From the NCBI GenBank assembly GCA_046047375.1, contig JBJOIB010000268.1, positions 1-35,195 of the forward strand: a DNA stretch of 35,195 bases, read 5' to 3'. This document shows, piece by piece, positions 1 to 25,478 of the stretch. The stretch's first letter is position 1; each line of letters begins with the position of its first letter. The notes beneath the pieces were generated by a model that saw only the letters and a list, made by a program, of their open reading frames with translations, ran no database searches and had not been told where the DNA came from. The translations under genes were made by a program, and so were the position numbers. Source of the DNA: Bacteroidota bacterium (lineage in GTDB: Bacteria > Bacteroidota > Bacteroidia > Flavobacteriales_D > Sanyastnellaceae).

Positions 1-982
1 TCGTGATTTCTAGCACGCCTGCGCCGCAACAGTTATCAGTGGCATCAATTCCGAATCCGATGATATCTCCCGCATTGGCGAAAAACGAAACATGTCCGAA
101 CTGGTCATTTGCCTGATTTGGATTACCAAGCTCATCGAATTCTGTAACGAGATCGATACGTTCACCGTTGATATAGTAGGCTATATCGTATGTCCAATCT
201 TCATCAGAAGTGGAGTAATACCAATCAAACTCGAACGTTCCGCTATTATCGGCTTCAATGGTCACTTGGGTGAGCGGATTTACAGCTCCGCTATCATCAT
301 TTGAACTAGTAATTGTAAGTGATTGTTCCTGGAAGCTAATGTCGCCACCAGAATCCAATTGGAAGATCCAGTTCCATTGAGAATAATAATTCGTGAAATA
401 ATGACCAACGCCATTGCTATCAACCAGGTTATCGCATGGATCCCAGTACAAGCACGATCCATCATCGGTGGTAGCTGCGGGGTGGTAGTTGTAAGCATCG
501 TCATCTGTACAACCTGAAAAATCCTCAGGGAAGAGCATAGCACACAAGCCTGATTCTTCCGAATATTCAATCAGTCCGGTTTCAGGATTATACATACCCA
601 TTCCCCCGGCTTCATTGGCAGTGATGTAGAAAACATTTCCACATCCCTCGAAAGACATCACTTGTTCACCATTCAGGTAAATCCAGCCGTCTTCATTGAA
701 GGTGTAATATTCGCCATCTGTTCCATATATGTACGATGGATCAGAGCAATCTACTTCAACAAACATCCAGCTTGTATTGAGCAGGTCTTCAGCAAGACCG
801 TAGAGGCAAGAGCCATCATCGAGGATTGCCGTTTCATTGAAGTTACAGGCTTCGGGGTCAGTGCAACCCGGCAAAATATCGCCTTGATTTGATAGAATGG
901 GGTTAGTTACCCCTTGGGCTTGCAATACCGTTGTTGCCATAGCGGCACAGCATACAAGCAAGAATCGTAAATAGAACATCAT
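1..982 (-). CDS. Secreted cysteine-repeat protein; only the N-terminal ~327 codons are present because the C-terminus is cut by the window edge
   Basis: It is absent from the ORF track because it runs off the 5' edge. My hand translation of the minus strand from ATG 982-980 (MMFYLRFLLVCCAAMATTVLQAQG...) stays open down to base 2. The N-terminus is hydrophobic and signal-peptide-like. There are two GCTD..A.N.N...DDGSCLY modules, at 800-868 and 446-514. Confidence 0.75.
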   Translation of the reverse strand, partial: MMFYLRFLLVCCAAMATTVLQAQGVTNPILSNQGDILPGCTDPEACNFNETAILDDGSCLYGLAEDLLNTSWMFVEVDCSDPSYIYGTDGEYYTFNEDGWIYLNGEQVMSFEGCGNVFYITANEAGGMGMYNPETGLIEYSEESGLCAMLFPEDFSGCTDDDAYNYHPAATTDDGSCLYWDPCDNLVDSNGVGHYFTNYYSQWNWIFQLDSGGDISFQEQSLTITSSNDDSGAVNPLTQVTIEADNSGTFEFDWYYSTSDEDWTYDIAYYINGERIDLVTEFDELGNPNQANDQFGHVSFFANAGDIIGFGIDATDNCCGAGVLEIT

Positions 983-1116
983 AGAGTGAAAATTTATGAG
1001 CGCAACTTAGTACGCTCTAGGGTGTTAAAATGTAGGAACTACCCTTACGATGGTGTAGGGAGTTCGGAGGCGTTTACGGTGTGGGGTAAAAGAAGGTTTT
1101 AAAAACCGTTATTCTT

Positions 1117-1160
1117 TATACGCAAAATGACTATTTAGGCAAATAGTCATTTTGCGTATA
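1117..1160. repeat. Perfect 20-bp inverted repeat with a 4-nt spacer (TATACGCAAAATGACTATTT-aggc-AAATAGTCATTTTGCGTATA)
   Basis: Read directly: arm 1117-1136 is the exact reverse complement of arm 1141-1160. It sits between the tRNA-Arg terminator and the start of the 1-982 CDS. Function is unknown. Confidence 0.9.
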
Positions 1161-1206
1161 GCATTCAATTATTTGATTATCAATCTCATAAGAAATTTTT
1201 TAGCCT

Positions 1207-1235
1207 ATAAAAAAAGGCGGACACACATCCGCCTT
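1207..1235 (-). terminator. Rho-independent terminator downstream of tRNA-Arg
   Basis: The minus-strand sequence reads AAGGCGGA-tgtgtg-TCCGCCTT followed by TTTTTTTAT. That is an 8-bp GC-rich stem with a 6-nt loop and a T-run, 26 nt past the tRNA 3' end. Confidence 0.7.
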
Positions 1236-1260
1236 CCGAAGCCTCAACTTCTTCACCTTG

Positions 1261-1332
1261 TAGCCCCGCCAGGGATCGAACCTGGATTTTAGGTACCGGA
1301 AACCTACGCACTATCCATTGTACTACGGAGCC
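1261..1332 (-). tRNA. tRNA-Arg (anticodon CCG)
   Basis: Hand-folded 72-nt cloverleaf. Acceptor GGCTCCG/CGGGGCT (two G-U pairs), D stem GTAC/GTGC, anticodon stem TAGGT/ACCTA with loop TT-CCG-GT, and T arm CCAGG-TTCGATC-CCTGG. CCA is not encoded. Confidence 0.9.
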
Positions 1333-1510
1333 GCGGCAAATATACTAACATTGAACAATCTCAACTACCCTCTCACCATTCCATGCCCAAAAAAAATCAC
1401 CCAAACAAGGTATTGACTGAATATCAAGCTTCAATGACCTTTGTAACATGGAAAATACACCCGCTTCCTTCTGCATTCTCCTCGAATTAGCCCAAACCAG
1501 CGCTAAATTC

Positions 1511-1532
1511 AAAAAGAAGTGCTGCAAAGCAC
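1511..1532 (-). terminator. Weak candidate terminator after the M1 peptidase gene
   Basis: The minus strand reads GTGCT-ttgc-AGCAC followed by TTCTTTTT. The stem is only 5 bp. Confidence 0.3.
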
Positions 1533-1576
1533 ACAAAAAAGGAAACCGATGCAAAAAATGCCCGGGAAAGAAGTAA

Positions 1577-4588: not shown

Positions 4589-4749
4589 TGGCAGTGGAAA
4601 TATGTTAGTTCTAATAGCAACTCAAATTACTATAAAAAACAAAAGCCAGAAAAAATAGAACAAGATATTATTCGATCTAAGGTTGGTCAACTCTTCTCCG
4701 TCACTCAAAAAAGGGGTAAAACACCTAATTGAGAACACCTGGTTATTAG

Positions 4750-4782
4750 AAATGAAAAGGGCCATCTTGAACAGACAGCCCT
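4750..4782 (-). terminator. Candidate rho-independent terminator after the 2026-aa gene
   Basis: The minus strand reads AGGGCTGTC-tgttcaa-GATGGCCCT, a 9-bp stem with two G-U pairs, followed by TTTTCATTTCT. It lies about 20 nt past the stop codon. Confidence 0.4.
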
Positions 4783-4803
4783 CCTCTAAATCATTCAGAA
4801 ATT

Positions 4804-7800
4804 TTAGCCGCAGGCCTGACCCAACATGCTCAACAGAATAAGCAGGTCTGCTGTATTCACAGCCCCATCGTTGTTCATATCAGCAGCGCCGCAGTTGCTC
4901 GTACATCCCATGTTGGAAAGTAAAATCAACAAATCGGCAGTGTTAACTAACCCATCGTTGTTGAGGTCAGCAAAACAAGCAACTTCTCCCGGACCTATTG
5001 TTCCGTCGCAGTTGTTATCTACCCCATCAGCTGTTGGTGGTGCTCCAGGGTACACCAGTGGATTGGAATCATCACAATCTGAAGAATCCAACACATATCC
5101 TGACTGCACCTGGCACAACTGAACCGGCTCATTCACATCTCCAAACCCATCGCCATCACTATCCAGATAGAAGGTGAATAGCTCTTGTGTAGGATTGAAT
5201 ACATCCGGACAATTGTCTATGTCATCAGGCACGCCATCACCATCCGTATCCAAACCGATGCATTCGAACTGAATGATCAACGGCGACGACTGGTCTGATC
5301 CACAGATGTTTGAAACCACCACGAAAATCTCCCCTGTTTCCAGAGTCACGTTATTGAAGTCCAACCCGATGTTATTCGAATTGTTTCCACTTACAATGGT
5401 GGTACCCGCAGGCAATGTCCATGTGTAATTGGTCGCATTATCAACCGGTTCGAGGTAATAAGCGGCGTCATCCGTGAGCGGACAGATGGTTGTTGCGCCT
5501 GAAATGAGTGAGGTAATCACCGGCGTTTCAAGTACATCTACCATAAATTCAGTTGGCACACTGTAGCAACATGCTTCACTCTCTTGAACGCACAAATACG
5601 TGCCCTCGATAGCTTCAGAAACGTTCGTACGCGTCCATGTAAGCCCACTGAACGATTGTCCGTCAGGTCCGTACCATGTCACAGGGTAGCCCTGATCCAC
5701 AGCGGTCAAAACAAGATTATCGCCACCGCACAAGTCGATTGAAAGATCAACCACTTGCGGAGCTGCAGGCGGGTTGCACATGTTGAATGACGAAGTTCGT
5801 GTGATGCCCCAACGTCCGTCCGCATTTTTAACACGAACAGAAATGAGGTGCTCTCCCGGACTCAATCCTGCGATATCGATATCGTAAGAGGCCGTCACAA
5901 CAGGTGCACTTGGATCAACGATCAATTGTAACGCGTTGCCCGGACCCGGATCAGCGCTGTCGAAGAAGTATTCTCCAACAACGATGTCGGCCGCCGGTTC
6001 TTGCGGAAGCACATCTTCCTCGCTGAGGTACACTCCAAGGAAGGTAGCCATACCCCATTCACCTTGCGCATCTCGCATTCGAACTCCCAGCACGTGATAA
6101 CCTTCTGTGAGTCCAACGGTTGGGATATCAGCAATCGATCCTACCACGTTACCTTGAGTTACCGGAATCGCAATACCATTGCCAACTCCCGGATCGCCGT
6201 TCCAGAAATACTCTCCTGCAAAAACGCCATCGGAAACAATCACATTCGCTACCGAAGCAACTGCAGTGCTTGTACAGGTTCCATCGCTCACCGTAACTTC
6301 ATAGCTACCGGAGCTCAGTGAAGTGATTCCTGCCGTTGTAGCACCTGTACTCCAATCATACGAGTAAACATAGGCGCTTCCACCAGAGGCAATCACAATA
6401 GCGCTACCGTTACCTAAGTTGTTGGTTTCAGCGTTGACAATTATTTCTGCCTGAACGGCAGGATACACAACAACATCAACCGATTCAGACACATACGTAT
6501 TACCGAAAGCATCTTCAAATGAGCAGAAATAGGTGCCCGATGTTTGAACCGAGATTGAATTCGACTGTACTCCGTTATTCCAAATAACATTGGATCCAAC
6601 CGGTGCGGTCAAAATAACCTCACCGCCCTCACAAAAAGTTGTTAAGCCATTTACGTCCAATGCAGTACTTACAGGCTCGCCAATGGTGATTGTAACAACT
6701 TCTATATCGTTGCAATCTCCTCCGTTAGAAACCATCAAGGCTACTTGATACTCTCCCGGTTGAGGGAAGGTGTGAGTAGTTGTGGCTCCAGAAGCGTCAG
6801 CATTGCCGTCACCATCAAAATCCCACCCGAAGGTTGCTTCAGGCAATAAGTTCGATGAAGTACTCACAAAATCCACTACGGTTCCTCCTGCGATGTTCTG
6901 CTGAGCATCGAAAGAAGCTACAGGAACCGCACAAGGCACCTGCTGTACCGTAAAGTATGACGTCCGGGTAACCGACCATTTGTCGTTCAAGTCTTTGGTT
7001 CGCACGTTCAGCCTGTGAACCCCTGGTAACAAGCCTGCTACTTCAATAGCAGCTACTTGTTGCAAATTCACCCCCGGTTGTACAGGAATATCGATTGCCA
7101 TTCCAACACCTGGATCTTGCGCATCGAAGAAATACTCGGCGGCAACAATCGGGAAGGTAGCATCCGGCAAGTTCGACGGAATCGTGATTTCGATAACGAA
7201 GAACGTTGAACGCACAAACCCCCAATGCCCGTTATCATCTTTCATCCGCACATTAATTTTGTGCATGCCAGGTTCTAACCCTGCAGCATCAACAGAGGCC
7301 GTGAAATCGATGTTTGTATCTGGCACTGGCAACTCAAAGCCAAAGCCATTTCCAATCCCTGGATCCTGGTCATCGAAAAAGTACTCCCCGCGTAAGATAT
7401 CCACCGCAGGTGTAGTAACGACTTCTGGATTCTCATCGTCCAAGTAAACAGAAAACGTGCGGGTAATTCCCCAACGTCCGTTCACTTCCTTGGCGCGCAA
7501 TGATAACTGATGATAACCAGCCGTCAGGCCGATGGTCTCAATATTCAAATACGTGTCAATTTCGATGTTCTCAGGAATCAACAGAGGCGTTCCGTTTCCA
7601 ACCCCGGGATCTTCTCCGAAGAAATACTCGGCTTCGACTAACCCAACTATTGGTTCAACGGTTTCGTTAGCAATCACCACAGCTATTGTTTGCGAACAAG
7701 TGCCGTCCGAAATCACAGCTGTGTAATTTCCTGCGGCCACTCCTGCAATAATCGCTGTTTGCTCACCTGAAGACCACTGGATGTCGTAACTGAAGGAGTT

Positions 7801-10800
7801 GCCTCCTGATACGAACAAGGCAGCACTGCCATTCATCAAACCATTCGTTGAAGCTACCACATCGGTTTCAATAGTCATGGCAGGATAAGCCTCCACTTCT
7901 ACTGTTTCAGACACCCATCCAAAGCCATTCGCATCCACAAAATAGCATTGGTAGAATCCAGATTCCGACACTTCAATGGACTGTGTTTGCTCCAGGGTGT
8001 TCCAAACATATCCTGACCCAGCTGGGGCAGTCAATACAACAGAACCCGGAGAACAAAAGGCAAGCGCTCCACTGGCTACAATACTCAGATCGGTGAGCGG
8101 AAGAACATCCACCCATTGCACAATTGAAGTCGTACACGTAATTCCGTTTCCAGCAGTTAACGTTACAGGGTATGTTCCCGGACCGCTAAACGAAGCCGTA
8201 ATTGTAGCCCCTGTTCCATCAACAACGCCATCTCCATCCACATCCCACGTGATTACCCCTCCTGATTCTAAACCTGTGGTTGTAGAAGAAAGGAGAAGTT
8301 GATTTGGACCGATGGTACTCACCGTAAATGATGGCTCTGGAACCGTGCAAGCGGGCTCAACCACATTAAACACATGTGTTCGAGTGATCGACCATTGACC
8401 CCACACATCCAACACACGAATGCTGATGCGGTGCGAGCCGACGCTTAATCCGGTAACATCACATTCGGCAGGGAATTGAACATCCGTGCCTGCCGCTAGC
8501 TGCAATGGAGTAGCATTACCCGGCCCCGGATCATTGTTATCGAAGAAGTATTCAGCTTCTACAATAGGCAAGTGAAAGTCCGGGAGAAGTGGAGGAAGAA
8601 TGTAATCAACCGCAAAAATGGTTGATGCCGTTATACCCCAAGCTCCATCTGCATCCCTAAATCGGAATGAAATGCGGTGCTGTCCGCCAGACAAACCTGT
8701 TGTTGGCACGGGCTCCAGCAATGACAGTGATTCTCCGGCAACAAGCGCAGTAATTGGAATTCCATTACCTGCACCCGGATCGGTTTCATCGAAGAAATAC
8801 TCACCCGCAACAATCTGCAACGCCTGGTAATCAATCACCTCAGCATCAGGATCGTTCACGAAAACATTGTGGGTGCGGGTCATCCCCCATTCGCCCTCTG
8901 CATCCTGAAGACGCACTGAAATGGAGTGAAAACCAGCACTGAATCCCGCTAGGTCTACGTTTATCGGTGCGTTGATTTCTTGTCCCGAAGCCAAGGTAAA
9001 GGCTGTTCCGCTTCCTACGCCTGGATCTGTATCGACGAAATACTCCCCGCGCACTACCCCTTGGAGTGGCGCCACAAGCTCGTTTGCAATAACAAATGGA
9101 ATGTCAACACTACAAATGCCATTGGTCACTTCCACTGAATAGCTTCCAGGCGTAAGCCCCGAAATTCCCGGTGTTGTTTCGCCCGTACTCCAGCTAAAAC
9201 TGTAGCTCGGAAATTCGAACTCATTCCAAACCGGAATCACATTTCCATTTTCGCCATTCACGGCATCTGTGATCGAAAGTGAAACCACTGGCAAAGGGTT
9301 TACTACAATCTCAACAGATGAAGAAATGTAGTCGAAGCCTCCGGAAGTGAGCACACACGAATAAAGACCTGCTTCATTCACTTGAATCGACTGAGTGGTC
9401 TCACCATTGCTCCAAGCATAAGCATCGCTCACCGGGGCAGTTAAGGTGACAAACTCATCTGCACAAATCACAGTTTCACCAGTTACCACCAGCTCAGCAG
9501 GCAAATCGCCCACTTGCACGAGGTCAATGTATGTTGAAAATGCTATGTTCTCTTCATACAAGTCAACAACCTCAGTTACAGATAACTCAGTGTCGAAAAT
9601 GCGCACTTTATCCATCGAGCCTTCTGCCAACGACGCATAGTTAAGCAAGAGTTCATCGGCGAAGATACCCGAGTAAGAAAAAGTTGCGCTGCTGGTTTGA
9701 ACGCCATTCAAATAAGCTTTCGTTTCTCCGGTTGTCCCATTTACGGTGAGTGCAAAGTGTGCCCACGCATTTCCGTTGTACAAGTTAGAGTTACCGGCGT
9801 AAATGCTGTTACCTCCAATTTGGTGGTATCCAGAAACGACACCGCGATAGCCGTTAGCTGGATTAGAACCCAATGACAGCAATGCATACGCATAAGCACC
9901 TTTAAACCAGTAAGATATGGTAAAATCACCTAGCGTTACAGGAGTTGCCGATGCTTCATACATGCCACCATCAAGATCCAAAGCGCCTAGAATATCACCT
10001 TCTTTCCCTGGAGTGAACATTACACCATTCGATCCTGAAAGCGGCGAAAACAAGCCTTGTTCATCTTGTGCAGATGCCTCAAAGAATTCATAATTCACAA
10101 GAGCGTTATCCACCAATGGTGTTTCATCATCCACTACAGTGAGTTTCACCTCATAAATACCCGGCCCTGGAAAGGTGTAGTTGAACGATGATCCGTTGCT
10201 CTCAACAGTTCCATCAGCGAACACATCCCAGCTGTATATAGCGTTTCCAGATGCATTTTGTGAATCACTTGTGAAATTCACTGCAACACCCGGCATTGGG
10301 TTATTTGGTGAGTAGGTAAAGTGTGCAATCAACGGAGACGGATCTTCGTTGCCGTATTGCACTTCCCTCCATTCGGCTAAAGACCATTTCCCGTCTTGCG
10401 ATAAAACACGCATTCCGAGTAAATGGGTTCCTTCAGTCGAAGGGGGTGGTATAGACATTTGTACATCGTTTCCATTCGCTGGGAAATACATCGGAATACC
10501 ATTGCCCGCGCCGGGGTCAGTATCCCAAAAGTATTCTCCTCCTACCAGCGTTAGCACCTGAGGTAACTCAGGAAATGCATACGCGGTAACGTTTACGAAA
10601 AACGATGTCGTCGAGGTCATTCCATAAACGCCAAACTGATCTTTGAATCGAACCGAGAAGGTATGAAATCCCGCTTCGAGTCCTAAGGTTGGACCGTTAA
10701 TGGTAATGTCCACTTGCGAATCAGGCAGTATGGCTATTGGCACTCCTAATCCGGGACCCGGATCATCATCGAAGAAATACTCTCCTTCAATGAGGTTTTG

Positions 10801-15850: not shown

Positions 15851-15896
15851 ACCCTGTAGCGTGTTTGCACCGAACACACTTAAAAGCGTTAATGCT

Positions 15897-16045: not shown

Positions 16046-16263
16046 AGCAAGGCAAAAGCACACAAAAAAGTAACGGTTGTGCATTGTTTATTCCCAACTA
16101 TACGAAGCCCAAACATTAAACAGTTTGACACCGGATACATGATTCTTAAAGTCAAAACAATACAAGAATCTGTGTTAAGGAATTTGTTCATTCGAATGCA
16201 ACAGAAGGATGCTTGAACCTCCTCAATAAATTGCCTCGAACTACAAGCAATTGTAAAAAAGAA

Positions 16264-19200
16264 TTATTGACAAGTTGTGCCGAAAGCGGAAAGGAAGGAT
16301 AGCAAGTCACCTGAATTTACAACGCCATCGCCGTTTATGTCGCCTTCACAAGAACTCCCTGAATCAAACAAGCAACTTCCATCATCCGAGGTTGCTAAGG
16401 GCGTGTAATTGAGGGCCAACGGATTCATACATCCAGCAAATAGGCAAGATCCATCATCTACAGCTGCATTCCCATTGTAATTTAAAGCCAACGGATAGGT
16501 ACATCCCTCAGAAGGCTGCACACAAGATGAACATGCACCCCAACATACTAGGTCGAGAATAATGTAAGTATCAATGACTTCAACAACACGATTCGTGAAA
16601 GTACCGGTAGATAAGGTGCAGGTATCACCAGGCGTCAGCTCCTCTTGAATGTTCCATGCGTCAGCGGCATATTTGAACTCATAGAAGCCAGGTGCCAGAG
16701 AAATGGTTGCTTCCCACAAGTCACCGCCAACATTGGTCATAGGAGAACATCCTCCACACCAGCCGTTAAAGGTACCGTTTACCTCTGGTGTGGTGAACGA
16801 ATCGCTCACTTGTGACATATCTACGCGAAATACCACATCGTAAAACACTGCTTGGGAATCACATACAGAACAGCTAGCCCAACAAACAGTTCCTAGATCA
16901 AGACTTTGATCTACCACTTGAATCGTGCGATTCGTAAACACGTCAGTAGTAAGGGTGCAGAAATCACCAGGCGTAAGTTCTTCTTGAATGTTCCATGCGT
17001 CCGCAGCATATTTGAACTCATAGTTGCCTGGGGCTAGAGGTATGATCAGTTCCCAAACAGAGCCTCCAATGTTTGTCATCGGCTGACAGCCCCCGCACCA
17101 GCCATTGAAAGTACCATTCACTTCGGGCGTAATAAACGGATCAGTCACCTCTGACATGTCAACTCGGAACACTACATTGAAATAGCAGCTCCCATCGTCA
17201 ATATTGGCTAATGCATTGTAATTGGCTGCGCCGATATTTGTGCATCCATAGGTCGGGCAGTCAGACGTGTTACCAATAAAAAGCCCTACAGGACCGTTTT
17301 GAGCACTTGCAATCAAAGCCAAACCATCTGTGTTACCTATCATGACAACTGGAATGGTAATCAACTCCGCGTATTGCCCTGCTCCCATTTCAAAGGTATC
17401 ATTTCCAATTACGTTGTTCACAACGATGACTGCAACAGCGCCCGCTTGCTGAGCATTGTAGACCTTTTGAGAAAAAGCACAACTACCTCGCTGTATTAAA
17501 GCTACTTTGCCTGTGAGGTCGTTCGAAGGTGAATTGCACCCGAGCGCGGAGCCATCAAAACTATCAACATATACCACTGCTTGAGCCTCTATGTTGTCGT
17601 GATATCCAACAGGCACGGACCACCCCACAGCATTACTATAAGCATAGGTTATGCTCTCAGGCGATTGCATTGCGACTGTCGGTGTCCAACAAGAGGCATC
17701 GCAAGCCTCTAATCCTGTTGTGCCCCCAACGCAAGTGCCACAGCCATCAATGAAAGCATTACCTCCTTCAAGGCCCTGACAGTCGCAATCGAGGTAATCA
17801 ACTACAACTGAATTACTCGTTGCACAAGTTGAACCTGCAATGTCATTCGGGTCACTGTATACCACTCCGGTGATTGTCCACGGACCAGACAACGGAGGAT
17901 AGCCGCTACCTGAAAACAAACCATTCAAATCGCCATTAAAACTCAATGAAAGAGGTACATCAGTGATGTAGGAGGCCTCCCCAAAGCCACCCGACGCTCC
18001 GACGCCAGGTTGAAACAACAAGCCATACAAGTAACCTTCTGGGATATCAGACCCAACTACATCAAATGTGAAATATGCAGAAGCGCAAAGCGAAGTCGTA
18101 CCAGTAGGAATTGACCCTGCGTTGCAAACGACTGGAGGGTTTCCTGCAGTATTGTTCAAGCGACCAATATAATTTCGATTGACAAGGTCAATGAATTGAA
18201 ATTGACCACCTATCACAAGTTTACCGTCTGACTGAATCGAAATAGAATAAACATTGCCTCCTACATTCGACTGAAAGGATGTATCATAACTTCCATCAGA
18301 ATTGAGGCGCAAAATATAGCCAGAAAATGAGCCCGAGAAAAGCACTTGTCCGTCTGCCTGCTGGAGTATATCTGTTACGTTTGTAATTTGAGTAGAGGTA
18401 GCTGGAAGGGCGAAGCCTGTATCCACAACTCCATTCGCCTCCAAACGAGCAATGCGGGTTCTTGGCTCGTTATTTACAGAAGTAAACGAACCAGCTATTA
18501 AGATTTTCGCATCTGACTGAACATCGATTGCCCGCACAAAACTATTGGGACCGCTACCAATATTGAACGTAACATCAAGAAGACCGTTTGAATTTAAGCG
18601 AATTAATCGTGGTACAGAAGTACCGTTATAAGAGGTAAAATTCCCGCCAATGAGCACTTTACCATCGTCTAACAACTTGGCAGCAAAAACCACGTTATTT
18701 GTGCCTGTCCCTACTGCGAAACTCCAGTCTTTCAAGCCAGACTCGGATAGTTTTACCAAGTTCGCACCTCCGTCTCCGTTGTAAGAGCTGAATATTCCGC
18801 CAACAAATAATGAACCGTCTGGAGCAAGTTCAAGAGTCCAAACCTCACCGGTAAATCCTGTTCCTATGGAAAAGGATGTATCTAGAGAACCGTCGGCATT
18901 GAGCTGAGCTATTCTATTCACAGCAACTCCGTTGTACTCAGTAAAATTACCACCGATGATAATTTTGCCATTCGGTCTGACAGCTATTGCACGTACTCTT
19001 TCGTTTGCACCGGTTCCAGTTTGAAAACTATTATCTACAGAACCGTCGGAATTGAGGCGAATGATACCACCGACCGCAGAACCGTTAAATGCAGAGAAAA
19101 TCCCACCGACAAGTATTTTACCGTCAGGTTGAATCTTGGTCGTCTCTACGGTTGAATTGGCCCCAGCACCTGGATCAAACGATGCATCCAAACTGCCATC

Positions 19201-20109: not shown

Positions 20110-20484
20110 CTATGAATCCAAAGATTCAAAAAAGTCAAAAGGAAGTGGTTTTTCAACAAAGCGTTTTACGCATAAACTTTCAGCAGCACGCTGTTTATCG
20201 TTAACATCGATGGATGAAGAGCAAACGTACAATTGCGAATTTCCATTTTCGCAGCGCAAGCGTTCAAACTCCTCCAAGAACAGCCACCCGCCACCCACTG
20301 GAATGTTGATATCCAGAAGAATTGCATCGGGAACTTCGTTGGTTTCTTGCAGGGCTTGGTTGGCCTCCTGCACGGTTGGCAACTCTCGAACCTCCCATTT
20401 AGTGCTAGATGCTTGCGCTATGGTACGCACAATCATTCTGAAGATCGCATCGTCGTCGATGACCCAAAGTTGCTTACTGCTCAT
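20110..20484 (-). CDS. Stand-alone CheY-like response regulator (receiver only)
   Basis: 124 aa with LWVIDDDAIFRMI...AILLDINIPVGGGW...VCSSS...VEKPL. There is no output domain. It overlaps the upstream kinase gene by 11 nt. Confidence 0.9.
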   Translation of the reverse strand: MSSKQLWVIDDDAIFRMIVRTIAQASSTKWEVRELPTVQEANQALQETNEVPDAILLDINIPVGGGWLFLEEFERLRCENGNSQLYVCSSSIDVNDKQRAAESLCVKRFVEKPLPFDFFESLDS

Positions 20485-22435
20485 TACCCGGTAAATATAC
20501 GGTGAAAGTCGTACCTACATCAGGTGTACTTTCAACAGTCACTGTCCCCCCCATCATCTCCGCTTGATTGCGGGTCAGGTATAAACCTATTCCCTGTCCT
20601 TTCCCTTCTGAATTAAAGGTTTTAAACATCCCAAAGATATCAGACCCGTGTCGCTCCAAATCAATCCCTCTTCCATTATCCTTAACCTTCAGTTCGAAAC
20701 CATTACCCATCTTGAATGTCGAAACGTGAATATGTGGTTCACGGTCTGCACTTCGGTACTTGATAGCATTTGTTATGAGGTTCATAACAATACTTTCAAG
20801 CAATGCCTTGTCTGACCAAATCAAAGGAGCACTTTCGCAATCACATTCAAACGTGGCTTGTGTCTCTTGAATATCAAACGCAAGTGAATCTATGATCTTT
20901 CTTATCAAGCGATTGATGTCCACAGCTTCTTTATCGACCTTTGGATCAACACCCATCGAGATGGTGCTGTTCAAACTGCGTATTGTTTCATCGAGGTTGT
21001 GAACAGAGCGGTCAAGGACTTCAAAAAACTTGATAGCTCCATCAGGAATCGGATGCATTTGGATAAGCTTAACCAAAGCCATAATGTTGCTGGTATGCGA
21101 CCGGATGTTGTGAGACAGTACATTCGAGAAATTGTGTAAACGATCATTCCGTGACTTTACGTCGGCGAGAGCCTTTTCAAGCTCTTTCATTCGCACATCG
21201 CGATCAGCTTCCAATTCTTTCCGCTTCGTAATGTCGCGAATCAATAATACGCCTTGTACTTCGTCAATTGGACTTAGTCGGGTCTCGAAAAAACAATGGG
21301 TATCCGGACATTGCATAATCATTTCGAGGTTCTCATCGCCCTTCTCTTTGTCACGCCCACTCAACTGCTCACCCAATTTTGAGGCCATTCCACTATCATT
21401 AATGAACTGGATCATTTGCTGGCGAACTGGAGTCAACGGTTGGAGTTCGAACTTTTGAGTATCGGCTGAGTGCCGAATAAGTATGAGTTCATCAGGGAGA
21501 GCATTGATAACAGCACTCAGCTGGTTTCGACTAGCTTCAATTTCCTCTTTCGCCTTAACCGCCTCAGTGATATCGCGCTGTATCGAAATGAAATTCGCAA
21601 TTTTACCCTCATCGTTCTTTATGGGGTAGATTTGAATTTCAACGTGATAAGGAACCCCATCTTTTCGATAGTTGACCACCCGCTCCATACAAGGCTCGCC
21701 TTTGCGTATGGCCTCCTCCATGCGGCGCTTCGATTCCTCGTCCTTGTATGATCGCCGAAGAACTTCATCAGGAAATCTTCCTATCACTTCGCTTAGATGG
21801 TAACCACTTACTCGCTCAAACGCTGCATTTACCCATTCAATGCGCTGATCGGCATCTTTCAGAACGACCATGTTGTCGGTGTGGGTGGCAATAAAGCTCA
21901 AGCGGTCCTTTACGCGGTTCAATTCACTATTGGCCTCTTCGGTCTTGATCCTTAGGTAAATGGTTGCAGACAAGTGGATGAGGAACCTGAATGATTCTCG
22001 CTCCATCGGACTAAACGCGTCGACTCTACTGCTAACGGCACCAAAAACTCCTACAACTTTCCCTTCTACCCGTATTGGATGATACAACCGAGAACGAACT
22101 TGGAATGATCGGTCGCTGTCTGTTGTTGTATAAGTGGGATCATTTAAAACATCCGGAATATACCACCCTTCACCCGATTGAAAAACCTTTCCCGGATGCC
22201 GCTCCATCGCCGTGCTTTCTGCCGCGAGACGTTCATCTTCTGTGAAGCCTTTGGCCACTAGCAATTCTAGCCGTTCGGTGTCTTGGTTGTAAAGATACAG
22301 ACCCGAATATTCCATGACCATCAACTCGTCAAGCGTCTTCTCTACCTCTGAAATCCATTCGGGAATTGTACGCAGGGTATTGAAGCGCTCCAGGTAGTCA
22401 GTACAGCGAATAAGTTCCTCGTGGGCAGTGGCCAT
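20474..22435 (-). CDS. Soluble GAF-PAS-PAS sensor histidine kinase
   Basis: 653 aa with no evident TM segment. N-terminal GAF-like region (LYLYNQDTERLELLVAKGF...VVGVFGAVS). PAS regions, H-box FSNVLSHNIRSHTSNI, and an ATP-binding region GQGIGLYLTRNQAEMMGGTVTVES. Confidence 0.9.
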   Translation of the reverse strand: MATAHEELIRCTDYLERFNTLRTIPEWISEVEKTLDELMVMEYSGLYLYNQDTERLELLVAKGFTEDERLAAESTAMERHPGKVFQSGEGWYIPDVLNDPTYTTTDSDRSFQVRSRLYHPIRVEGKVVGVFGAVSSRVDAFSPMERESFRFLIHLSATIYLRIKTEEANSELNRVKDRLSFIATHTDNMVVLKDADQRIEWVNAAFERVSGYHLSEVIGRFPDEVLRRSYKDEESKRRMEEAIRKGEPCMERVVNYRKDGVPYHVEIQIYPIKNDEGKIANFISIQRDITEAVKAKEEIEASRNQLSAVINALPDELILIRHSADTQKFELQPLTPVRQQMIQFINDSGMASKLGEQLSGRDKEKGDENLEMIMQCPDTHCFFETRLSPIDEVQGVLLIRDITKRKELEADRDVRMKELEKALADVKSRNDRLHNFSNVLSHNIRSHTSNIMALVKLIQMHPIPDGAIKFFEVLDRSVHNLDETIRSLNSTISMGVDPKVDKEAVDINRLIRKIIDSLAFDIQETQATFECDCESAPLIWSDKALLESIVMNLITNAIKYRSADREPHIHVSTFKMGNGFELKVKDNGRGIDLERHGSDIFGMFKTFNSEGKGQGIGLYLTRNQAEMMGGTVTVESTPDVGTTFTVYLPGNEQ

Positions 22436-22447
22436 GAATGATCCGAA

Positions 22448-22861
22448 TTAAGCTTTCAATGCCGCTTCCACAATGGCTTCGTCTTGCTTGTAATGCCCTC
22501 CACTTACACCGATCGCACCACAGATTTGACCCTCGTGCATGATCGGACTTCCACCGCCAAGCAAGATGAAGTCTGGTAATTGCTGGGCGCCGTGCAAAAG
22601 AATCGGATCGTCTTTGATGAAATTGTACCAAGCATCTCCCGTTGGAAAGCCAAAACCTGCGGCCAAACGGGCTTTCTTAATAGCAGTTTCAACCGAGATT
22701 AAAGGCGCACCGTCCATGCGATGAAAGGCCTTCATGATTCCGCTCTCATCAACGATAGCAATGACATAGGCTCCCTGCATACGTTTCGCTTCGGCAACTG
22801 CGCGATTTATCATTTCCAGCGCTGTCTCAGCCGAAATAGAAAACTTTGTAACAACACTCAT
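22448..22861 (-). CDS. GlcG/HbpS-family (DUF336) putative haem-binding protein, cytoplasmic
   Basis: 137 aa. Family-typical AYVIAIVDESG...FHRMDGAPLISVETAIKKARLAA and GGGSPIMHEGQICGAIGVSGG. There is no signal peptide. The stop lies 12 nt upstream of the kinase start. Confidence 0.85.
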   Translation of the reverse strand: MSVVTKFSISAETALEMINRAVAEAKRMQGAYVIAIVDESGIMKAFHRMDGAPLISVETAIKKARLAAGFGFPTGDAWYNFIKDDPILLHGAQQLPDFILLGGGSPIMHEGQICGAIGVSGGHYKQDEAIVEAALKA

Positions 22862-23369
22862 AGTTTATTAGTCTATTCTCTAATATACAAATCAAACTCT
22901 TAGCAGTTCAATGTAAAAAATATAGAATAACACCCATTCGACAGAATGACAAATAAAGACGACGAAATGCATAGATATTCAAATCCGCTAGAATTAAATT
23001 GGCCTCATATGGATCATAAGAGCCACGTAAAACAAAAAAGACCATGCGCGGCTAGCAACCAATAATCCAACCCAAAGGCCCAAAACGGAACTATATTGTG
23101 ATGACAAGCGAGATCGTCTTTCACAATGAACGAGGCGCCGTCAGGCCCAATCTGTGGCTGCTTCTTACGCTTACCCCCGACTTCAAAGGTGTAGGTGCAG
23201 GCGGTGAAATCGGCGGGTTCTAATTTTTACAAAAGCAAATTTTCCAGACAGATAAAATTAGAATCCATTATCTGTTCGCAGAGATAAGTTATCTGCACTA
23301 AACTTTTTATCGTTTTAATTCCAAAGTCAGTCTATGCGTGAACTCGAACACATTTAATCCGTTTTGACA

Positions 23370-25478
23370 TTAAAAATAACGTATTGCCCTCACACGTCCA
23401 GAAACAAAGCTCTTAGCGAAGTCAATACCTTGTCCGTTTTGAAAATTAATTAGATTGGCACTGTATGCGTTTAATTCGGTAGAAGTCCAGTAATAGTTGG
23501 CTTGAAAGCCTCCCAATCCTTGGGAATGAAGGTTCTGGTACATCTTGACTAAGTCCCAGTATGTTGGCAAGTACCAATCTGAGAATCCTCCAGAAGAATA
23601 ATTCTCACAAAGCCAAGCAGCGATGTTACTTTCGGAACATCCTGCCGTGATTAGAGTTGTATTATTCGCAGCCTGCCCCAAAGTCATGCTTGTAGCGCCT
23701 ATCAGCGTGTTTACACAACCCCAAGTGGCAATTCCAAGATCAGTATTAGAGACTATAATTCCATGCGGCACTGCAGGATCATATCCAGGGTCACCGGGTT
23801 GGAAAAGATATCCCAAAATCCCCCCTCCCAATGGGCTACCGATCGAAATACATGAAACATAATCACACGACTCATTATCATCGGTGGCAGCTGGATTGAA
23901 ATTGCAAGCATTCGAATCGGTACACCCTGCCACTTCCAGCTCATCCGGAACGCCATCACCATCGGCATCGTTTACAGGAGTACCATCGCAATTGAAGTAA
24001 TCTTGTTGGTATTGGCATGAACCATTGTCTTCTGTAGCTTCTTCGCTATAGTTACAAGCTGCAGTATCTGTGCACCCGAGGAATTCAAGCTCATCACAAA
24101 CACCATCTCCATCGGCATCGTTCAAACATGCGCCATTGCAATCCAGAAATTCAGCTGGATAAGCACAATAGCCCAAATCAAAAGTTGCGTTTGGATTGTA
24201 ATTGCAGCCAGCAGGATCCATGCAACCAGCGCCACTGCAATATGATCCGTAAGAAGATAAAAAGCTCAACAAGTCAGCCGAGGTTATTTGTCCATCGTTG
24301 TTCACGTCTCCTTTGCACGTAACAAAACACGACCCATCATCCAAGGTTGCTCCAGGTGTGTAGTTAGCAGCTTCCGTAAAGGTGCAACCAGACACCTCTT
24401 CAAGGTCGCACAAACCGTTGTTATTGAGATCGAGCAGGCAGTTGCCTGCGCAATCGTAGTTGGGTTCGGGGAAGGTACATGAACCGTCGCCCACATTGGC
24501 TTCAGGGTTGTAGTTGCAGGCCGTTGGGTATTCACACCCGTACACTTCCACCTCATCGCACACACCATTGTTGTTGCAGTCATTGAGACAGTTGCCAGCG
24601 CAATCGAGGTTGGGTTCAGCGAACACACACTCACCCCCTTGCCCAAAGTTGCAGGCGGCAGGGTCGGCGCAAGGGGCTACATAGGGTACACCGGTGTAGA
24701 GGGCTGTGATTTCTTCAGGGGTAAGAGCGCGGTTGTAGATGGCGATGTCGTCGATTGCTCCATTGAATGGATCAATCAAATTATTCTGATAATAGCGGGC
24801 TCCAATAGTTGTGTGGTCAAAAACATTACCAATTTGTTGAGGAATATTGTTTGAACAAAACTGGCAGTTGTAATTATTGCTCTGTAAAATAGAATTTAAG
24901 TAAACCTTTTGTCGATTTTCCGAAATACCTTGACTCCCGTCAAAAACAATAACTATGTGATTGAAATCTTGAAAATTCAACTGAGAACTAGAACCTACTG
25001 ATAACCCACCGAGGTAGGCCGTGAAAATATTCCACCCCGAATTATTCCCATAAAAGCCAGTGTAAAAACTTACTGGCGTTCCATATTGAACAGGATTTGA
25101 TTTCCAATTTGCAAAGACTGTTTGGGGAGTTAATTGACCTTGATTAGGAACAAGCCAATACTGAATTGAAAAACTTGTGGAATTTGCTATTTGTCCTGAA
25201 TTAAGTGGTAAATCAATGACGTCATCCACCCCATCAAAACTATATGCCGCATTGGGATTACCATCGCGGTCGTCAGACAACGTCGCCCCATTCACAACCC
25301 CATCATTCCCGTTCCCACTTTCATCATTGGCGTTGCCATTGAACGGCCACCAGCCGACGAGCCCTTCGGTGGGCAGGTAATCGGGCAGTTGGGCCTGGGT
25401 GGTGAGGGGGTTGGCTGCCCATGCGAGCAAAGTAAATACTGCTGCCACGAGCGCGTGTGAAGTTGTTGTTGGCTTCAT
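23370..25478 (-). CDS. Secreted LamG_3 / Cys-module stalk / DUF1566 (Lcl C-terminal-like) protein
   Basis: 702 aa with a signal peptide (AVFTLLAWAANPLTTQAQ). LamG_3 hallmarks (WWPFNGNANDESGNGNDG...IDDIAIYNRALTPEEITALY). Six GC..ACNYN...DDGSC modules, one internal dockerin-like loop, and C-terminal DUF1566-like SDWYLPTYWDLVKMY...YYWTSTE. Confidence 0.9.
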   Translation of the reverse strand: MKPTTTSHALVAAVFTLLAWAANPLTTQAQLPDYLPTEGLVGWWPFNGNANDESGNGNDGVVNGATLSDDRDGNPNAAYSFDGVDDVIDLPLNSGQIANSTSFSIQYWLVPNQGQLTPQTVFANWKSNPVQYGTPVSFYTGFYGNNSGWNIFTAYLGGLSVGSSSQLNFQDFNHIVIVFDGSQGISENRQKVYLNSILQSNNYNCQFCSNNIPQQIGNVFDHTTIGARYYQNNLIDPFNGAIDDIAIYNRALTPEEITALYTGVPYVAPCADPAACNFGQGGECVFAEPNLDCAGNCLNDCNNNGVCDEVEVYGCEYPTACNYNPEANVGDGSCTFPEPNYDCAGNCLLDLNNNGLCDLEEVSGCTFTEAANYTPGATLDDGSCFVTCKGDVNNDGQITSADLLSFLSSYGSYCSGAGCMDPAGCNYNPNATFDLGYCAYPAEFLDCNGACLNDADGDGVCDELEFLGCTDTAACNYSEEATEDNGSCQYQQDYFNCDGTPVNDADGDGVPDELEVAGCTDSNACNFNPAATDDNESCDYVSCISIGSPLGGGILGYLFQPGDPGYDPAVPHGIIVSNTDLGIATWGCVNTLIGATSMTLGQAANNTTLITAGCSESNIAAWLCENYSSGGFSDWYLPTYWDLVKMYQNLHSQGLGGFQANYYWTSTELNAYSANLINFQNGQGIDFAKSFVSGRVRAIRYF

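What the first reader, a model, noticed from the sequence alone, without database searches (positions are those of the whole stretch)
446..25478. Eleven copies of an unassigned cysteine-bracketed ~22-aa module (GC-x4-AxNYN-x2-A-x2-DDGSC) spread over four secreted proteins
The copies are seen directly in the translations:
- Partial CDS 1-982: GCTDPEACNFNETAILDDGSCLY (800-868) and GCTDDDAYNYHPAATTDDGSCLY (446-514).
- 1016-aa protein: GCTNIGAANYNALANIDDGSCYF (~17182-17247), plus GCTYPLALNYNGNAAVDDGSCLF and GCMNPLALNYTPLATSDDGSCLF (~16366-16503).
- 702-aa protein: six copies between ~23856 and 24674, e.g. GCEYPTACNYNPEANVGDGSCTF, GCTDTAACNYSEEATEDNGSCQY and GCTDSNACNFNPAATDDNESCDY. One copy is degenerate.

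In the 702-aa protein the module alternates with a second Cys/Asp-rich unit (DCAGNCLNDCNNNGVCDEVE, DCAGNCLLDLNNNGLCDLEE, DCNGACLNDADGDGVCDELE, NCDGTPVNDADGDGVPDELE). That second unit resembles a thrombospondin-type-3-like Ca-binding loop.

The module sits between unrelated globular domains (LamG, DUF1566, PA, CBM-like). That placement fits a disulfide-stabilised spacer or a recognition tag. I cannot assign it to a named family from memory. Four carriers within 25 kb point to a locally expanded surface-protein family.
Basis: seen in the sequence. Interest (0 to 1): 0.7.

Follow-up and report, generated by a model that had tools for sequence, protein, structure and literature searches.

The report
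Unannotated disulfide mini-domain linking surface-protein domains
A 23-residue cysteine-closed module repeated in three secreted proteins of this window is a real, very widespread but unnamed building block of marine Bacteroidota surface proteins, and its only match among solved structures is the small "EGF-like" hinge of the animal pore-forming protein perforin-2; it most likely acts as a compact connector between domains.

Summary
The motif is real. An HMM of the copies finds 10 full copies and one shortened copy at the stated coordinates, all on the minus strand. They lie in three secreted proteins, not four. Pfam-A and NCBIfam have no family for it.

It is not a local expansion. A profile of the module hits 35,101 representative protein clusters, with up to 119 copies per protein. 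Named carriers are almost all uncultured marine Flavobacteriales/Bacteroidota, and 238 stretches lie on predicted viral contigs.

A profile built only from bacterial copies hits one thing in the whole PDB: residues 332-353 of perforin-2/MPEG1 (E=1.1e-4). Structural papers call this segment a truncated EGF-like hinge between the MACPF and P2/MABP domains. An AlphaFold2 model (pLDDT 95.6) retrieves only MPEG-1 with Foldseek (0.6 Å over 24 columns).

A third cysteine at module position 8 occurs only when a cysteine-bearing element follows (parity rule 303/307 and 61/65). In p702 the module alternates with EF-hand/TSP3-like Ca loops, giving units of about 50 residues.

Best reading: a one-disulfide connector or stalk bead. 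This is inferred, not shown. It is a new sequence family of a known kind; interest is moderate.

The parts
800..868 (-). Module copy 1 of the partial protein (CDS 1-982, residues G39-Y61), GCTDPEACNFNETAILDDGSCLY. Three-Cys form, directly after the signal peptide.
   Evidence: HMM hit E=3.2e-14; translation.
446..514 (-). Module copy 2 of the partial protein (G157-Y179), GCTDDDAYNYHPAATTDDGSCLY. Two-Cys form, between two regions with no Pfam match.
   Evidence: HMM hit E=8.2e-13. Pfam and NCBIfam give no family for this protein.
17179..17247 (-). Module copy 1 of the 1016-aa protein, GCTNIGAANYNALANIDDGSCYF. Two-Cys form, between the PA domain and the first CBM48-like domain.
   Evidence: HMM hit E=5.7e-11. 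PA at residues 580-667 and AMPK1_CBM at 732-778.
16366..16506 (-). Tandem module copies 2 and 3 of the 1016-aa protein (16438-16506 and 16366-16434). Two-Cys forms, between the second CBM-like domain and the C-terminal half-dockerin.
   Evidence: HMM hits E=9.5e-13 and 9.7e-14.
16270..16350 (-). C-terminal cysteine-bracketed half-dockerin / EF-hand loop of the 1016-aa protein, CEGDINGDGVVNSGDLLSFLSAFGTTC.
   Evidence: Weak Dockerin_1 (E=0.057) and NF041540 dockerin_GC (E=0.012) hits, both below cut-off; sequence.
24621..24674 (-). Shortened, degenerate module in the 702-aa protein (P269-F286), PCADPAACNFGQGGECVF, directly after the LamG domain.
   Evidence: Partial HMM hit E=0.28 covering CADPAACNFGQ; sequence.
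24546..24605 (-). Ca-loop unit 1 of p702 (D292-E311), DCAGNCLNDCNNNGVCDEVE. It keeps the EF-hand ligand pattern D/N at positions 1, 3, 5, 9 and E at 12.
   Evidence: Sequence. The same unit in homologues matches TSP3_bac and Binary_toxB.
24471..24539 (-). p702 module G314-F336, GCEYPTACNYNPEANVGDGSCTF (three-Cys form).
   Evidence: HMM hit E=1.6e-12.
24396..24455 (-). Ca-loop unit 2 of p702 (D342-E361), DCAGNCLLDLNNNGLCDLEE.
   Evidence: Sequence; conserved in orthologues (consensus).
24321..24389 (-). p702 module G364-V386, GCTFTEAANYTPGATLDDGSCFV. Two-Cys form, followed by the half-dockerin rather than a Ca unit.
   Evidence: HMM hit E=1.1e-12.
24237..24317 (-). Internal cysteine-bracketed half-dockerin / EF-hand of p702 (C388-C414), CKGDVNNDGQITSADLLSFLSSYGSYC.
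   Evidence: PDB dockerin 2y3n_B E=8e-4. EF-hand_1 and Dockerin_1 hits are weak. Predicted helices at model residues 123-126 and 136-146.
24159..24227 (-). p702 module G418-Y440, GCMDPAGCNYNPNATFDLGYCAY (three-Cys form, divergent DDGS).
   Evidence: HMM hit E=9.2e-12. First module of the AlphaFold2 model.
24084..24143 (-). Ca-loop unit 3 of p702 (D446-E465), DCNGACLNDADGDGVCDELE, the canonical DxDxDGxxDxxE.
   Evidence: Modelled at pLDDT above 90; sequence.
24009..24077 (-). p702 module G468-Y490, GCTDTAACNYSEEATEDNGSCQY (three-Cys form).
   Evidence: HMM hit E=2e-12. By my residue count it is the module that fits the 42% identity reported for the Foldseek match to MPEG-1.
23934..23993 (-). 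Ca-loop unit 4 of p702 (N496-E515), NCDGTPVNDADGDGVPDELE. The two loop-closing Cys are both replaced; the first Cys is kept.
   Evidence: Pfam Binary_toxB Ca-binding domain at residues 504-524, E=2.4e-4, below cut-off.
23859..23927 (-). p702 module G518-Y540, GCTDSNACNFNPAATDDNESCDY, directly before the Lcl_C (DUF1566) domain.
   Evidence: HMM hit E=8.3e-11. Lcl_C at 619-699 and NCBIfam adhesin_Lcl at 630-702.

Best explanation
The module is an independently folding mini-domain of about 23 residues. One disulfide (Cys2-Cys21) closes it, and a conserved set of small and polar residues (T3, D4, A7, N9, Y/F10, A14, D17, D18, G19, S20, aromatic 23) probably holds it together.

Its likely job is structural. 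It is a compact, oxidation-stabilised connector placed at boundaries between extracellular domains of secreted and cell-surface proteins.

It comes in two forms:
- **Free-standing two-Cys form.** This is the form in the 1016-aa protein, in copy 2 of the partial protein, and in perforin-2.
- **Three-Cys form (ACNY).** The extra Cys8 is predicted to bond to the first Cys of whatever follows. What follows is usually an EF-hand/TSP3-type Ca loop that is itself closed by a disulfide. The result is a unit of about 50 residues with three disulfides and one Ca site, which can be strung into long stalks of up to 119 modules.

The stalk would hold the functional heads (LamG, PA, CBM48-like, Lcl_C, beta-propeller) away from the cell.

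Shown here: the module's reality, its spread, the absence of a library family, the Cys co-variation, and the sequence and predicted-fold match to the perforin-2 hinge. Inferred: the disulfide map, Ca binding, and the spacer function.
For: - **Position.** Every copy in the window lies at a domain boundary: after the signal peptide, PA|CBM, CBM|half-dockerin, LamG|repeats, repeats|Lcl_C.
- **Fold.** AlphaFold2 on 70 composite repeats gives pLDDT 95.6 with almost no regular secondary structure, as expected for a disulfide-held mini-domain.
- **Cysteine logic.**
  - The downstream Ca unit follows 250 of 414 Cys8 modules and 0 of 109 modules without Cys8 (Fisher p=4e-37).
  - With Cys8, the spacer to the next module has an odd number of Cys in 303 of 307 cases. 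Without Cys8 the number is even in 61 of 65 cases.
  - In p702 unit 4 the two loop Cys are lost together while the first is kept.
- **Solved counterpart.**
  - A profile of 75 bacterial copies hits only MPEG1/perforin-2 in 177,635 PDB sequences: human E=1.1e-4, mouse 7e-3 to 2e-2, and nothing else up to E=10.
  - Foldseek with the model returns only MPEG-1 chains, rmsd 0.6-0.7 Å over 24 columns at 42% identity.
  - The longer model again ranks MPEG-1 first.
- **Role of the counterpart.** The perforin-2 segment is described as a "truncated EGF-like domain" linking MACPF and P2 at the hinge point (PMC6989145). A review calls it "a small folded linker region" (PMC7593815).
- **Copy number and partners.** The profile hits 35,101 representative clusters, with up to 119 copies per protein. 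Partner domains are very varied: Por_Secre_tail, CHU_C, Fib_succ_major, Lcl_C, LamG, LTD, SprB. That pattern fits a generic structural module.
Against: - There is no experimental evidence for the bacterial module. The disulfide map is inferred from co-variation only, because model coordinates could not be inspected.
- The 279-residue model of the p702 repeat region has pTM 0.29 at pLDDT 77. A defined rigid rod is therefore not supported; only well-folded beads are.
- Several conserved residues (N9, Y/F10, D17, D18) could equally form a ligand or metal site.
- The perforin-2 match is short. The Foldseek E-values are 2-6 and the profile E-value is 1e-4, so convergence is not excluded.
- No T9SS sorting domain or other recognised anchor was detected in p702 or p1016. 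The C-terminus of the partial protein is off the window. Surface display of these particular proteins is therefore assumed.
Confidence: 0.6

Rival explanations
1. The module is a miniature ligand-binding unit, a lectin-like or hevein-like carbohydrate binder. Repeats would add avidity for algal or particle polysaccharides to the LamG, CBM and PA heads.
For: - An aromatic residue (Y/F10), N9 and several acidic residues are conserved.
- The module co-occurs with carbohydrate-related domains: AMPK1_CBM/CBM48-like, LamG, Fib_succ_major.
- Named carriers are mostly uncultured marine Flavobacteriales, a group known as polysaccharide degraders (general knowledge).
Against: - The same residues are conserved in perforin-2, where the papers read here describe the segment only as an inter-domain linker or hinge.
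- The module sits strictly at domain boundaries and pairs with any kind of domain.
- No CBM family or lectin family was hit at E up to 1.
Confidence: 0.15
2. The module is itself a Ca2+ or other metal-binding bead. The ligands would be the TD...N...DDGS acidic and amide residues. Stalk stiffness would then be set by seawater Ca2+ through both the module and the EF-hand loops.
For: - The conserved acidic residues D4, D17, D18, together with N9 and S20, are reminiscent of Ca sites.
- The module always travels with Ca-binding elements: TSP3_bac, Binary_toxB, EF-hand, dockerin.
Against: - No Ca-binding family matches the module part itself. Where the matched residues were printed (p702 504-524 and 391-409; query 121-154), the hits lie in the DxDxDG unit or the dockerin-like segment.
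- The passages on this segment that I read in the perforin-2 papers describe only a linker or hinge. I searched those papers for terms such as EGF, disulfide and linker, not for calcium or metal.
Confidence: 0.12
3. The resemblance to perforin-2 is convergent. The bacterial module is an unrelated short Cys loop, and nothing can be carried over from MPEG1.
For: - The match covers only 22 residues. The profile E-value is 1.1e-4 and the Foldseek E-values are 2-6.
- No MACPF signature was found in the 304 proteins and 160 loci fetched.
- A search with the MPEG1 segment in the metagenome protein collection returned no candidates.
Against: - MPEG1 is the only PDB hit up to E=10 in both the sequence-profile and the structure search.
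- Thirteen of the 21 residues from G1 to C21 of the human MPEG1 segment (chain 332-353) match the bacterial consensus, by my count from the alignment. These include every conserved position except A7.
- In both settings the segment links two domains.
Confidence: 0.3
4. The module is a recognition tag, read by a secretion, sorting or modification system, rather than a structural element.
For: - All carriers have signal peptides.
- Many homologues are T9SS cargo carrying Por_Secre_tail.
Against: - Copy number ranges from 1 to 119 and positions are internal and variable, unlike a sorting signal.
- The module occurs with and without T9SS domains.
- It also occurs in an animal protein.
Confidence: 0.05

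Closest known systems
The "truncated EGF-like" linker/hinge of perforin-2 (MPEG1). It spans residues 332-353 of PDB chains 6U23/6U2J and is at the N-terminus of the 6SB1 crystal construct.
   Same: - Same length and Cys bracket.
- Same conserved positions: GCT[DN]xxxxN[FY]NxxA[NT]xDD[GD]SC.
- It is the only PDB hit of the bacterial profile (E=1.1e-4).
- It is the only Foldseek hit of the predicted structure (0.6 Å over 24 columns).
- In both settings the segment connects two globular domains.
   Different: - It is a single copy in an animal MACPF pore-former, flanked by MACPF and P2/MABP domains. No MACPF domain is present in the window or in the fetched relatives.
- Positions 7-8 are SP instead of A-C or A-x, and no Ca loop follows.
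- Its proposed role as the pivot of a 180° domain rotation is specific to perforin-2.
EGF-like domains (Pfam EGF clan)
   Same: Both are small, disulfide-stabilised extracellular modules used in tandem as spacers, sometimes alternating with Ca-binding sites. The perforin-2 literature labels the counterpart "EGF-like".
   Different: - EGF has six Cys forming three disulfides and a two-stranded sheet. This module has two Cys, or three with one bonding outside the module.
- No EGF-family model matched p702 or p1016 at E up to 1.
- Only 2 of 70 composite repeats gave an EGF-type hit, both at E above 0.1.
Thrombospondin type 3 / bacterial TSP3 repeats (PF02412, PF18884) and the anthrax-PA/binary-toxin Ca-binding motif (PF03495)
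   Same: - The unit alternating with the module carries the DxDxDGxxDxxE loop.
- TSP3_bac matches 27 of 70 composite repeats and Binary_toxB 22 of 70.
- As in thrombospondin, the Ca loops are interleaved with disulfides.
   Different: - These families describe the partner unit, not the module.
- In p702 itself the hit is below Pfam's cut-off (21.7 against 25 bits).
- The loop is closed by its own Cys pair and stapled to the preceding module, an arrangement those models do not describe.
Dockerin type I / GC-type dockerin (PF00404, NF041540)
   Same: Cysteine-bracketed single EF-hand-plus-helix segments occur next to the modules, in p702 (internal) and p1016 (C-terminal). A full double dockerin ends the 2026-aa neighbour: Dockerin_1 29.7 bits, above cut-off.
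   Different: These are separate elements, not the module. The half-dockerins score below cut-off, and no cohesin partner was sought.

Membership tests
Perforin-2/MPEG1 "EGF-like" hinge segment | Sequence pattern of the Cys-bracketed segment of about 22 residues ([21 protein letters not shown] in human). | tested here: met
   A profile of 75 bacterial copies hits human MPEG1 residues 332-353 at E=1.1e-4 (25.3 bits) and mouse at 7e-3 to 2e-2. There are no other PDB hits up to E=10. The location in the human chain was checked.
Perforin-2/MPEG1 "EGF-like" hinge segment | Same three-dimensional fold. | tested here: inconclusive
   Foldseek with the AlphaFold2 model (pLDDT 95.6) returns only MPEG-1 chains, rmsd 0.6-0.7 Å over 24 columns. 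The E-values are 2-6 because the match is so short. Coordinates could not be inspected.
Perforin-2/MPEG1 "EGF-like" hinge segment | Position as a short folded connector between two globular domains. | tested here: met
   All window copies lie at domain boundaries. The MPEG1 segment lies between MACPF and P2/MABP.
Perforin-2/MPEG1 "EGF-like" hinge segment | Context: preceded by a MACPF domain and followed by a P2/MABP domain. | tested here: not met
   Pfam finds no MACPF domain in any window protein scanned. No MACPF signature occurs in the 304 fetched proteins or 160 loci.
EGF-like domain | Six conserved Cys forming three intradomain disulfides. | tested here: not met
   The module has two invariant Cys. 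A third is optional, and its presence depends on a downstream partner.
EGF-like domain | Match to EGF-family profile HMMs. | tested here: not met
   No EGF-family hit on the carriers at E up to 1. Only 2 of 70 composite repeats hit an EGF-type model, at E=0.11 and 0.15.
TSP type 3 / bacterial TSP3 Ca-binding repeat (for the alternating unit) | DxDxDGxxDxxE Ca-binding loop and a match to PF18884 or PF03495. | tested here: met
   The loop pattern is present in all four p702 units. TSP3_bac matches 27 of 70 composites (best 8e-6) and Binary_toxB 22 of 70. In p702 itself the score is 21.7 bits, below the 25-bit cut-off.
TSP type 3 / bacterial TSP3 Ca-binding repeat (for the alternating unit) | Actual Ca2+ binding. 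| not testable with these tools
   Needs ITC, DSF or crystallography.
T9SS cargo protein | C-terminal sorting domain (PF18962 Por_Secre_tail or PF13585 CHU_C). | tested here: not met
   Neither p702 nor p1016 has one. The C-terminus of the partial protein is off the window. Many homologues do have one.
Dockerin type I (for the neighbouring EF-hand segments) | Duplicated Ca-binding loop plus helix of about 22 residues, matching PF00404 above cut-off. | tested here: inconclusive
   The 2026-aa neighbour meets it (29.7 bits against 22.9). p702 and p1016 carry single half-sites below cut-off (E=0.044 and 0.057). PDB dockerin 2y3n_B matches p702 at E=8e-4.

The most novel reading that the evidence does not exclude
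The bacterial module and the perforin-2 hinge are truly homologous. On this reading, the connector joining the pore-forming MACPF domain of an ancient animal immune effector to its membrane-binding domain belongs to a very large module family. That family hits 35,101 representative clusters. Its named carriers are mostly Bacteroidota, and some copies lie on predicted viral contigs.

This would imply one of two histories: part of the MPEG1 architecture was acquired from bacteria, or both inherited a very old extracellular connector. A weaker, recurring similarity of the module-plus-linker to the Cys motif of photosystem I subunit PsaN could extend the family further.
Probability: 0.3. Interest if true: 0.65.

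Novelty: new member of a known kind. Interest (0 to 1): 0.45.

Why it matters
A profile of the module hits 35,101 representative protein clusters and up to 119 copies in one protein. The members whose names I looked up are all called "hypothetical protein", and no Pfam or NCBIfam model covers it. Naming it would do three things.
- It would improve domain parsing of very many marine Bacteroidota surface and T9SS-cargo proteins, and of phage-encoded ones. Heads and stalks could be separated automatically.
- The Cys8 rule gives a testable disulfide map for a stalk unit of about 50 residues with three disulfides and one Ca site.
- The match to the perforin-2 hinge gives an experimental structure (6SB1, 2.05 Å) for the fold. 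It also raises a testable question about where that piece of an animal immune protein came from.

Tried and rejected
**Library and literature searches that found nothing**
- Pfam-A and NCBIfam scans of the carriers at E up to 1 gave no family over the module.
- phmmer of the p702 repeat region against PDB sequences hit only dockerins, for the internal EF-hand segment.
- Full-text searches found nothing relevant. I tried motif strings (ACNYD, ACNYN, DDGSC, GCTDP), Flavobacteria/TSP3/cysteine-rich/T9SS, and MPEG1/MACPF/Bacteroidetes/HGT.

**Searches that failed for technical reasons**
I used a consensus sequence instead.
- A 41-residue MPEG1 segment then found no candidate sharing three 5-residue words in the metagenome protein collection. 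The reciprocal test therefore could not be done there.

**Negative or uninformative results**
- A regex for the MACPF signature found nothing in the 304 fetched proteins and 160 loci.
- The long AlphaFold2 model (279 residues) gave pTM 0.29, so I dropped the claim of a rigid rod.

**Readings rejected**
- Chance or compositional artefact: HMM E-values of 1e-11 to 3e-14, conservation in orthologues, and near-saturated third-codon-position (largely synonymous) differences between copies.
- Recent local duplication: 57% nucleotide identity between copies.
- EGF membership: Cys count and profile tests both fail.

Full report

The six-frame regex and the translations show the motif at the stated coordinates. 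An HMM built from ten copies and run against all stop-to-stop pieces of the window recovers the following.

| Protein | Full copies (minus strand) |
|---|---|
| Partial CDS 1-982 | 800-868, 446-514 |
| 1016-aa protein (p1016) | 17179-17247, 16438-16506, 16366-16434 |
| 702-aa protein (p702) | 24471-24539, 24321-24389, 24159-24227, 24009-24077, 23859-23927 |

- The ten full copies have individual E-values of 1e-11 to 3e-14.
- One shortened copy, CADPAACNFGQGGEC, lies at 24621-24674 in p702 (partial hit, E=0.28).
- All other six-frame hits have E>2.
- The copies lie in three proteins, not four. The 2026-aa neighbour (4804-10884) has none.
- G1, C2, N9, A14 and C21 are invariant in the ten copies. 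A7, D17, G19 and S20 are present in nine.
- The copies share 54% amino-acid identity but only 57% nucleotide identity. Third-base identity at conserved residues is 40%. The copies are therefore old and maintained at the protein level.
- All three carriers begin with signal-peptide-like N-termini. This is read from the sequence, not from a predictor.

**2. Context inside the carriers**

Pfam and NCBIfam give these architectures.

- **p1016:** seven DUF5122/delta-60 propeller repeats, then a PA domain (580-667), a module, two CBM48-like domains (AMPK1_CBM, X25-like), two modules, and a C-terminal Cys-bracketed half-dockerin.
- **p702:** NCBIfam adhesin_Lcl also matches, at E=1.9e-7.
- **Partial protein:** no family at all.

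Every module lies at a boundary between domains.

In p702 the module alternates four times with DCxGxCxxDxDxDGxCDxxE. This unit keeps the EF-hand ligand pattern at positions 1, 3, 5, 9 and 12. A Cys-bracketed dockerin-like EF-hand interrupts the series once; PDB dockerin 2y3n_B matches it at E=8e-4.

**3. No library family, but a very large distribution**

*Libraries.* Neither Pfam-A (2025 copy) nor NCBIfam release 20 covers the module at E up to 1. A scan of 70 composite repeats hits only families that match the Ca unit, plus PsaN. The counts are TSP3_bac 27 of 70, Binary_toxB 22 of 70, EF-hand_1 7 of 70 and PsaN 18 of 70.

*Homologues of the p702 repeat region.* The search found 2,329 proteins at E≤1e-3. 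All 120 listed carry the module: 628 copies in total, median 5 per protein. Proteins that match this region at 60-74% identity keep the same order of elements.

*Whole-library count.* A 31-column module profile against 1.84 billion representative proteins gives:

| E-value threshold | Representative proteins |
|---|---|
| ≤1e-3 | 35,101 |
| ≤1e-10 | 14,909 |
| ≤1e-30 | 4,628 |

The top hit is a 6,618-aa Flavobacteriales MAG protein with 119 matched stretches. All named members I looked up are "hypothetical protein".

The best 80 are almost all uncultured marine Flavobacteriales, Crocinitomicaceae, Cryomorphaceae or Bacteroidota MAGs. A few outliers may be mis-binned: a Marinimicrobia single-cell genome, a Woesearchaeota MAG and a Comamonadaceae MAG.

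*Viral contigs.* IMG/VR contigs hold 238 confirmed stretches.

*Partner domains.* These are varied: Por_Secre_tail, CHU_C, Fib_succ_major, Lcl_C, LamG, LTD, SprB.

*Source of the window.* The exact look-up found p702 on only one other contig, from JGI metagenome 3300044681.

The "locally expanded family" reading is therefore not supported. This is a widely shuffled module.

**4. Cysteine logic**

Position 8 is Cys in about four-fifths of the copies in relatives (414 of 523) and in 5 of the 10 window copies.

- Among the 120 relatives, the Ca unit follows 250 of 414 Cys8 modules and 0 of 109 modules without Cys8 (Fisher p=4e-37).
- Counting all Cys between one module and the next gives a parity rule. 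With Cys8 the count is odd in 303 of 307 cases. Without Cys8 it is even in 61 of 65.
- In p702 unit 4 (NCDGTPVNDADGDGVPDELE) both loop Cys are replaced together while the first Cys is kept.

The simplest map is C2-C21 within the module, C8 to the first downstream Cys, and a pair closing the Ca loop. This is an inference. I could not inspect model coordinates.

**5. Structure and the solved counterpart**

*Composite model.* AlphaFold2 on an alignment of 70 composite repeats (module, Ca unit, module; first row p702 residues 418-490) gives mean pLDDT 95.6 and pTM 0.65, with almost no regular secondary structure.

*Sequence match to the PDB.* A profile of 75 bacterial module copies was searched against all 177,635 distinct PDB sequences. 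It hits only macrophage-expressed gene 1 / perforin-2, and nothing else up to E=10.

| Species | PDB chains | Segment | E-value |
|---|---|---|---|
| Human | 6U23, 6U2J (residues 332-353) | [22 protein letters not shown] | 1.1e-4 |
| Mouse | 6SB1, 6SB3, 8A1D | [22 protein letters not shown] | 7e-3 to 2e-2 |

*Fold match to the PDB.* Foldseek with the model also returns only MPEG-1 chains: 24 columns, rmsd 0.6-0.7 Å, 42% identity, E=2-6 because the match is short. From general knowledge, the AlphaFold2 weights used predate the 2019 release of these entries, so the agreement should be independent.

*What the literature says about the segment.*
- Ni et al. [quoted passage not shown] Their MACPF-EGF region is residues 31-371 (PMC6989145).
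- Bayly-Jones et al. [quoted passage not shown]
- I confirmed its place in the human chain.

*EGF membership fails.* The module has two Cys rather than six, and there are no EGF-profile hits.

*Longer model.* A 279-residue model of the p702 repeat region has pLDDT 77 but pTM 0.29. The beads are well defined, but their mutual arrangement is not. Foldseek again ranks MPEG-1 first, then dockerins, all non-significant.

**6. Most likely mechanism**

The module is a one-disulfide mini-domain used as a compact connector between extracellular domains.

- In the three-Cys form it is stapled to the next element. Usually that element is a disulfide-closed EF-hand/TSP3-type Ca loop.
- The result is a stalk unit of about 50 residues that can be repeated many times.
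- The stalk would hold binding or enzymatic heads away from the cell, or from a phage-encoded T9SS cargo.

Steps shown: existence, conservation, distribution, boundary position, Cys co-variation, and the sequence and predicted-fold match to the perforin-2 linker. Steps inferred: the disulfide map, Ca binding, and the spacer role. Confidence is about 0.6.

Rival readings:
- a mini-lectin (0.15);
- a metal-binding bead (0.12);
- a sorting or modification tag (0.05).

Separately, the perforin-2 resemblance could be convergent (0.3). That would leave the spacer reading without its only experimental anchor.

**7. Novelty and score**

As a sequence family the module is unannotated in the libraries available here, and it is absent from the literature I could search. 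As a kind of thing it is familiar: a small disulfide-held extracellular repeat, alternating with Ca loops. I rate it a new member of a known kind, with interest 0.45.

The most novel reading not excluded is true homology with the perforin-2 hinge. That would imply shared ancestry or transfer between this mainly Bacteroidota module family and an animal immune effector (probability about 0.3).

**8. What did not work**

See "tried and rejected". In short:
- the reciprocal search from MPEG1 could not be run in the metagenome protein collection;
- no MACPF-module fusion was found in the limited set fetched;
- the rigid-rod idea lost support from the long model.

Noticed in passing
window 24237-24317 (-), 16270-16350 (-), 4807-4980 (-): There is a third kind of Cys-bracketed Ca module: single dockerin/EF-hand halves of the form C.GD.N.DG..N..DLL.FL..[FY]G..C. 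One is internal in p702, one is the very C-terminus of p1016, and two in tandem end the 2026-aa protein (Dockerin_1 29.7 bits). All give weak hits to NF041540 "GC-type dockerin". None of these three proteins has a T9SS sorting domain, so a dockerin-type anchor may replace it. No cohesin partner was sought.
   Followed up: partly
P0188 residues 710-735 (best stretch); alignment A1 composites; PDB PsaN chains 2wsc_N, 2o01_N, 7yca_N: The second half of the module plus the linker to the next Cys (A.N[FY]..A.T...G[ST]C.[FY]PE.[FY]..C) recurrently resembles photosystem I subunit PsaN (GANFARAYTVEFGSCKFPENFTGC). Pfam PsaN hits 18 of 70 composites (best 8e-4) and one multi-copy protein at a summed E=2.6e-11. 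PDB PsaN chains score E=0.26-0.9. PsaN appears to lack the first bracket Cys (from the Arabidopsis sequence as I recall it; not checked here). This could be a distant relation or chance.
   Followed up: partly
L101:1633-3837 (+), IMG/VR contig IMGVR_UViG_3300030433_000900; also L102-L120, L123 and L130: A group of predicted viral contigs (8-69 kb) match the same part of the composite (residues 1-66) at 65-70% identity. In L101 the match lies in a 734-aa protein with a signal peptide, seven or more copies of the module, one Ca unit and a T9SS sorting domain (Por_Secre_tail, E=7.6e-11). A neighbouring ORF matches phrog_1084. This looks like a phage-borne T9SS cargo protein. In all, 238 viral stretches carry the composite.
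   Followed up: partly
window 4804-10884 (-): The 2026-aa protein contains ten copies of a GEYF[FW]DxDPGxGNG motif, spaced 80-83 residues apart within clusters. The clusters are interleaved with PKD domains and a LamG domain. No Pfam family passes its cut-off over these units; there are only weak Y_Y_Y, Ig_J and Lmo2445-like hits.
   Followed up: no
P0121 (NCBI MEZ7839320.1, MAG Flavobacteriales): This is a partial protein of 6,618 residues with 119 matched stretches of the module. Cluster members reach 7,469 residues. It is annotated only as a hypothetical protein.
   Followed up: no
L064, L066, L068; P0271/P0272: Module-bearing ORFs occur on contigs labelled Marinimicrobia (single-cell genome AAA003-L08), Woesearchaeota MAG, Comamonadaceae MAG and Methylophagaceae MAG. 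These are either real spread beyond Bacteroidota or mis-binning. Copy numbers are 2, 2 and 12 in L064, L066 and L068.
   Followed up: partly
window 12312-14519 (+) and 20474-22435 (-): Two PAS-domain histidine kinases lie between the genes for the secreted proteins. One is a hybrid kinase with a receiver domain and the other carries a GAF domain. A possible regulatory link was not examined.
   Followed up: no
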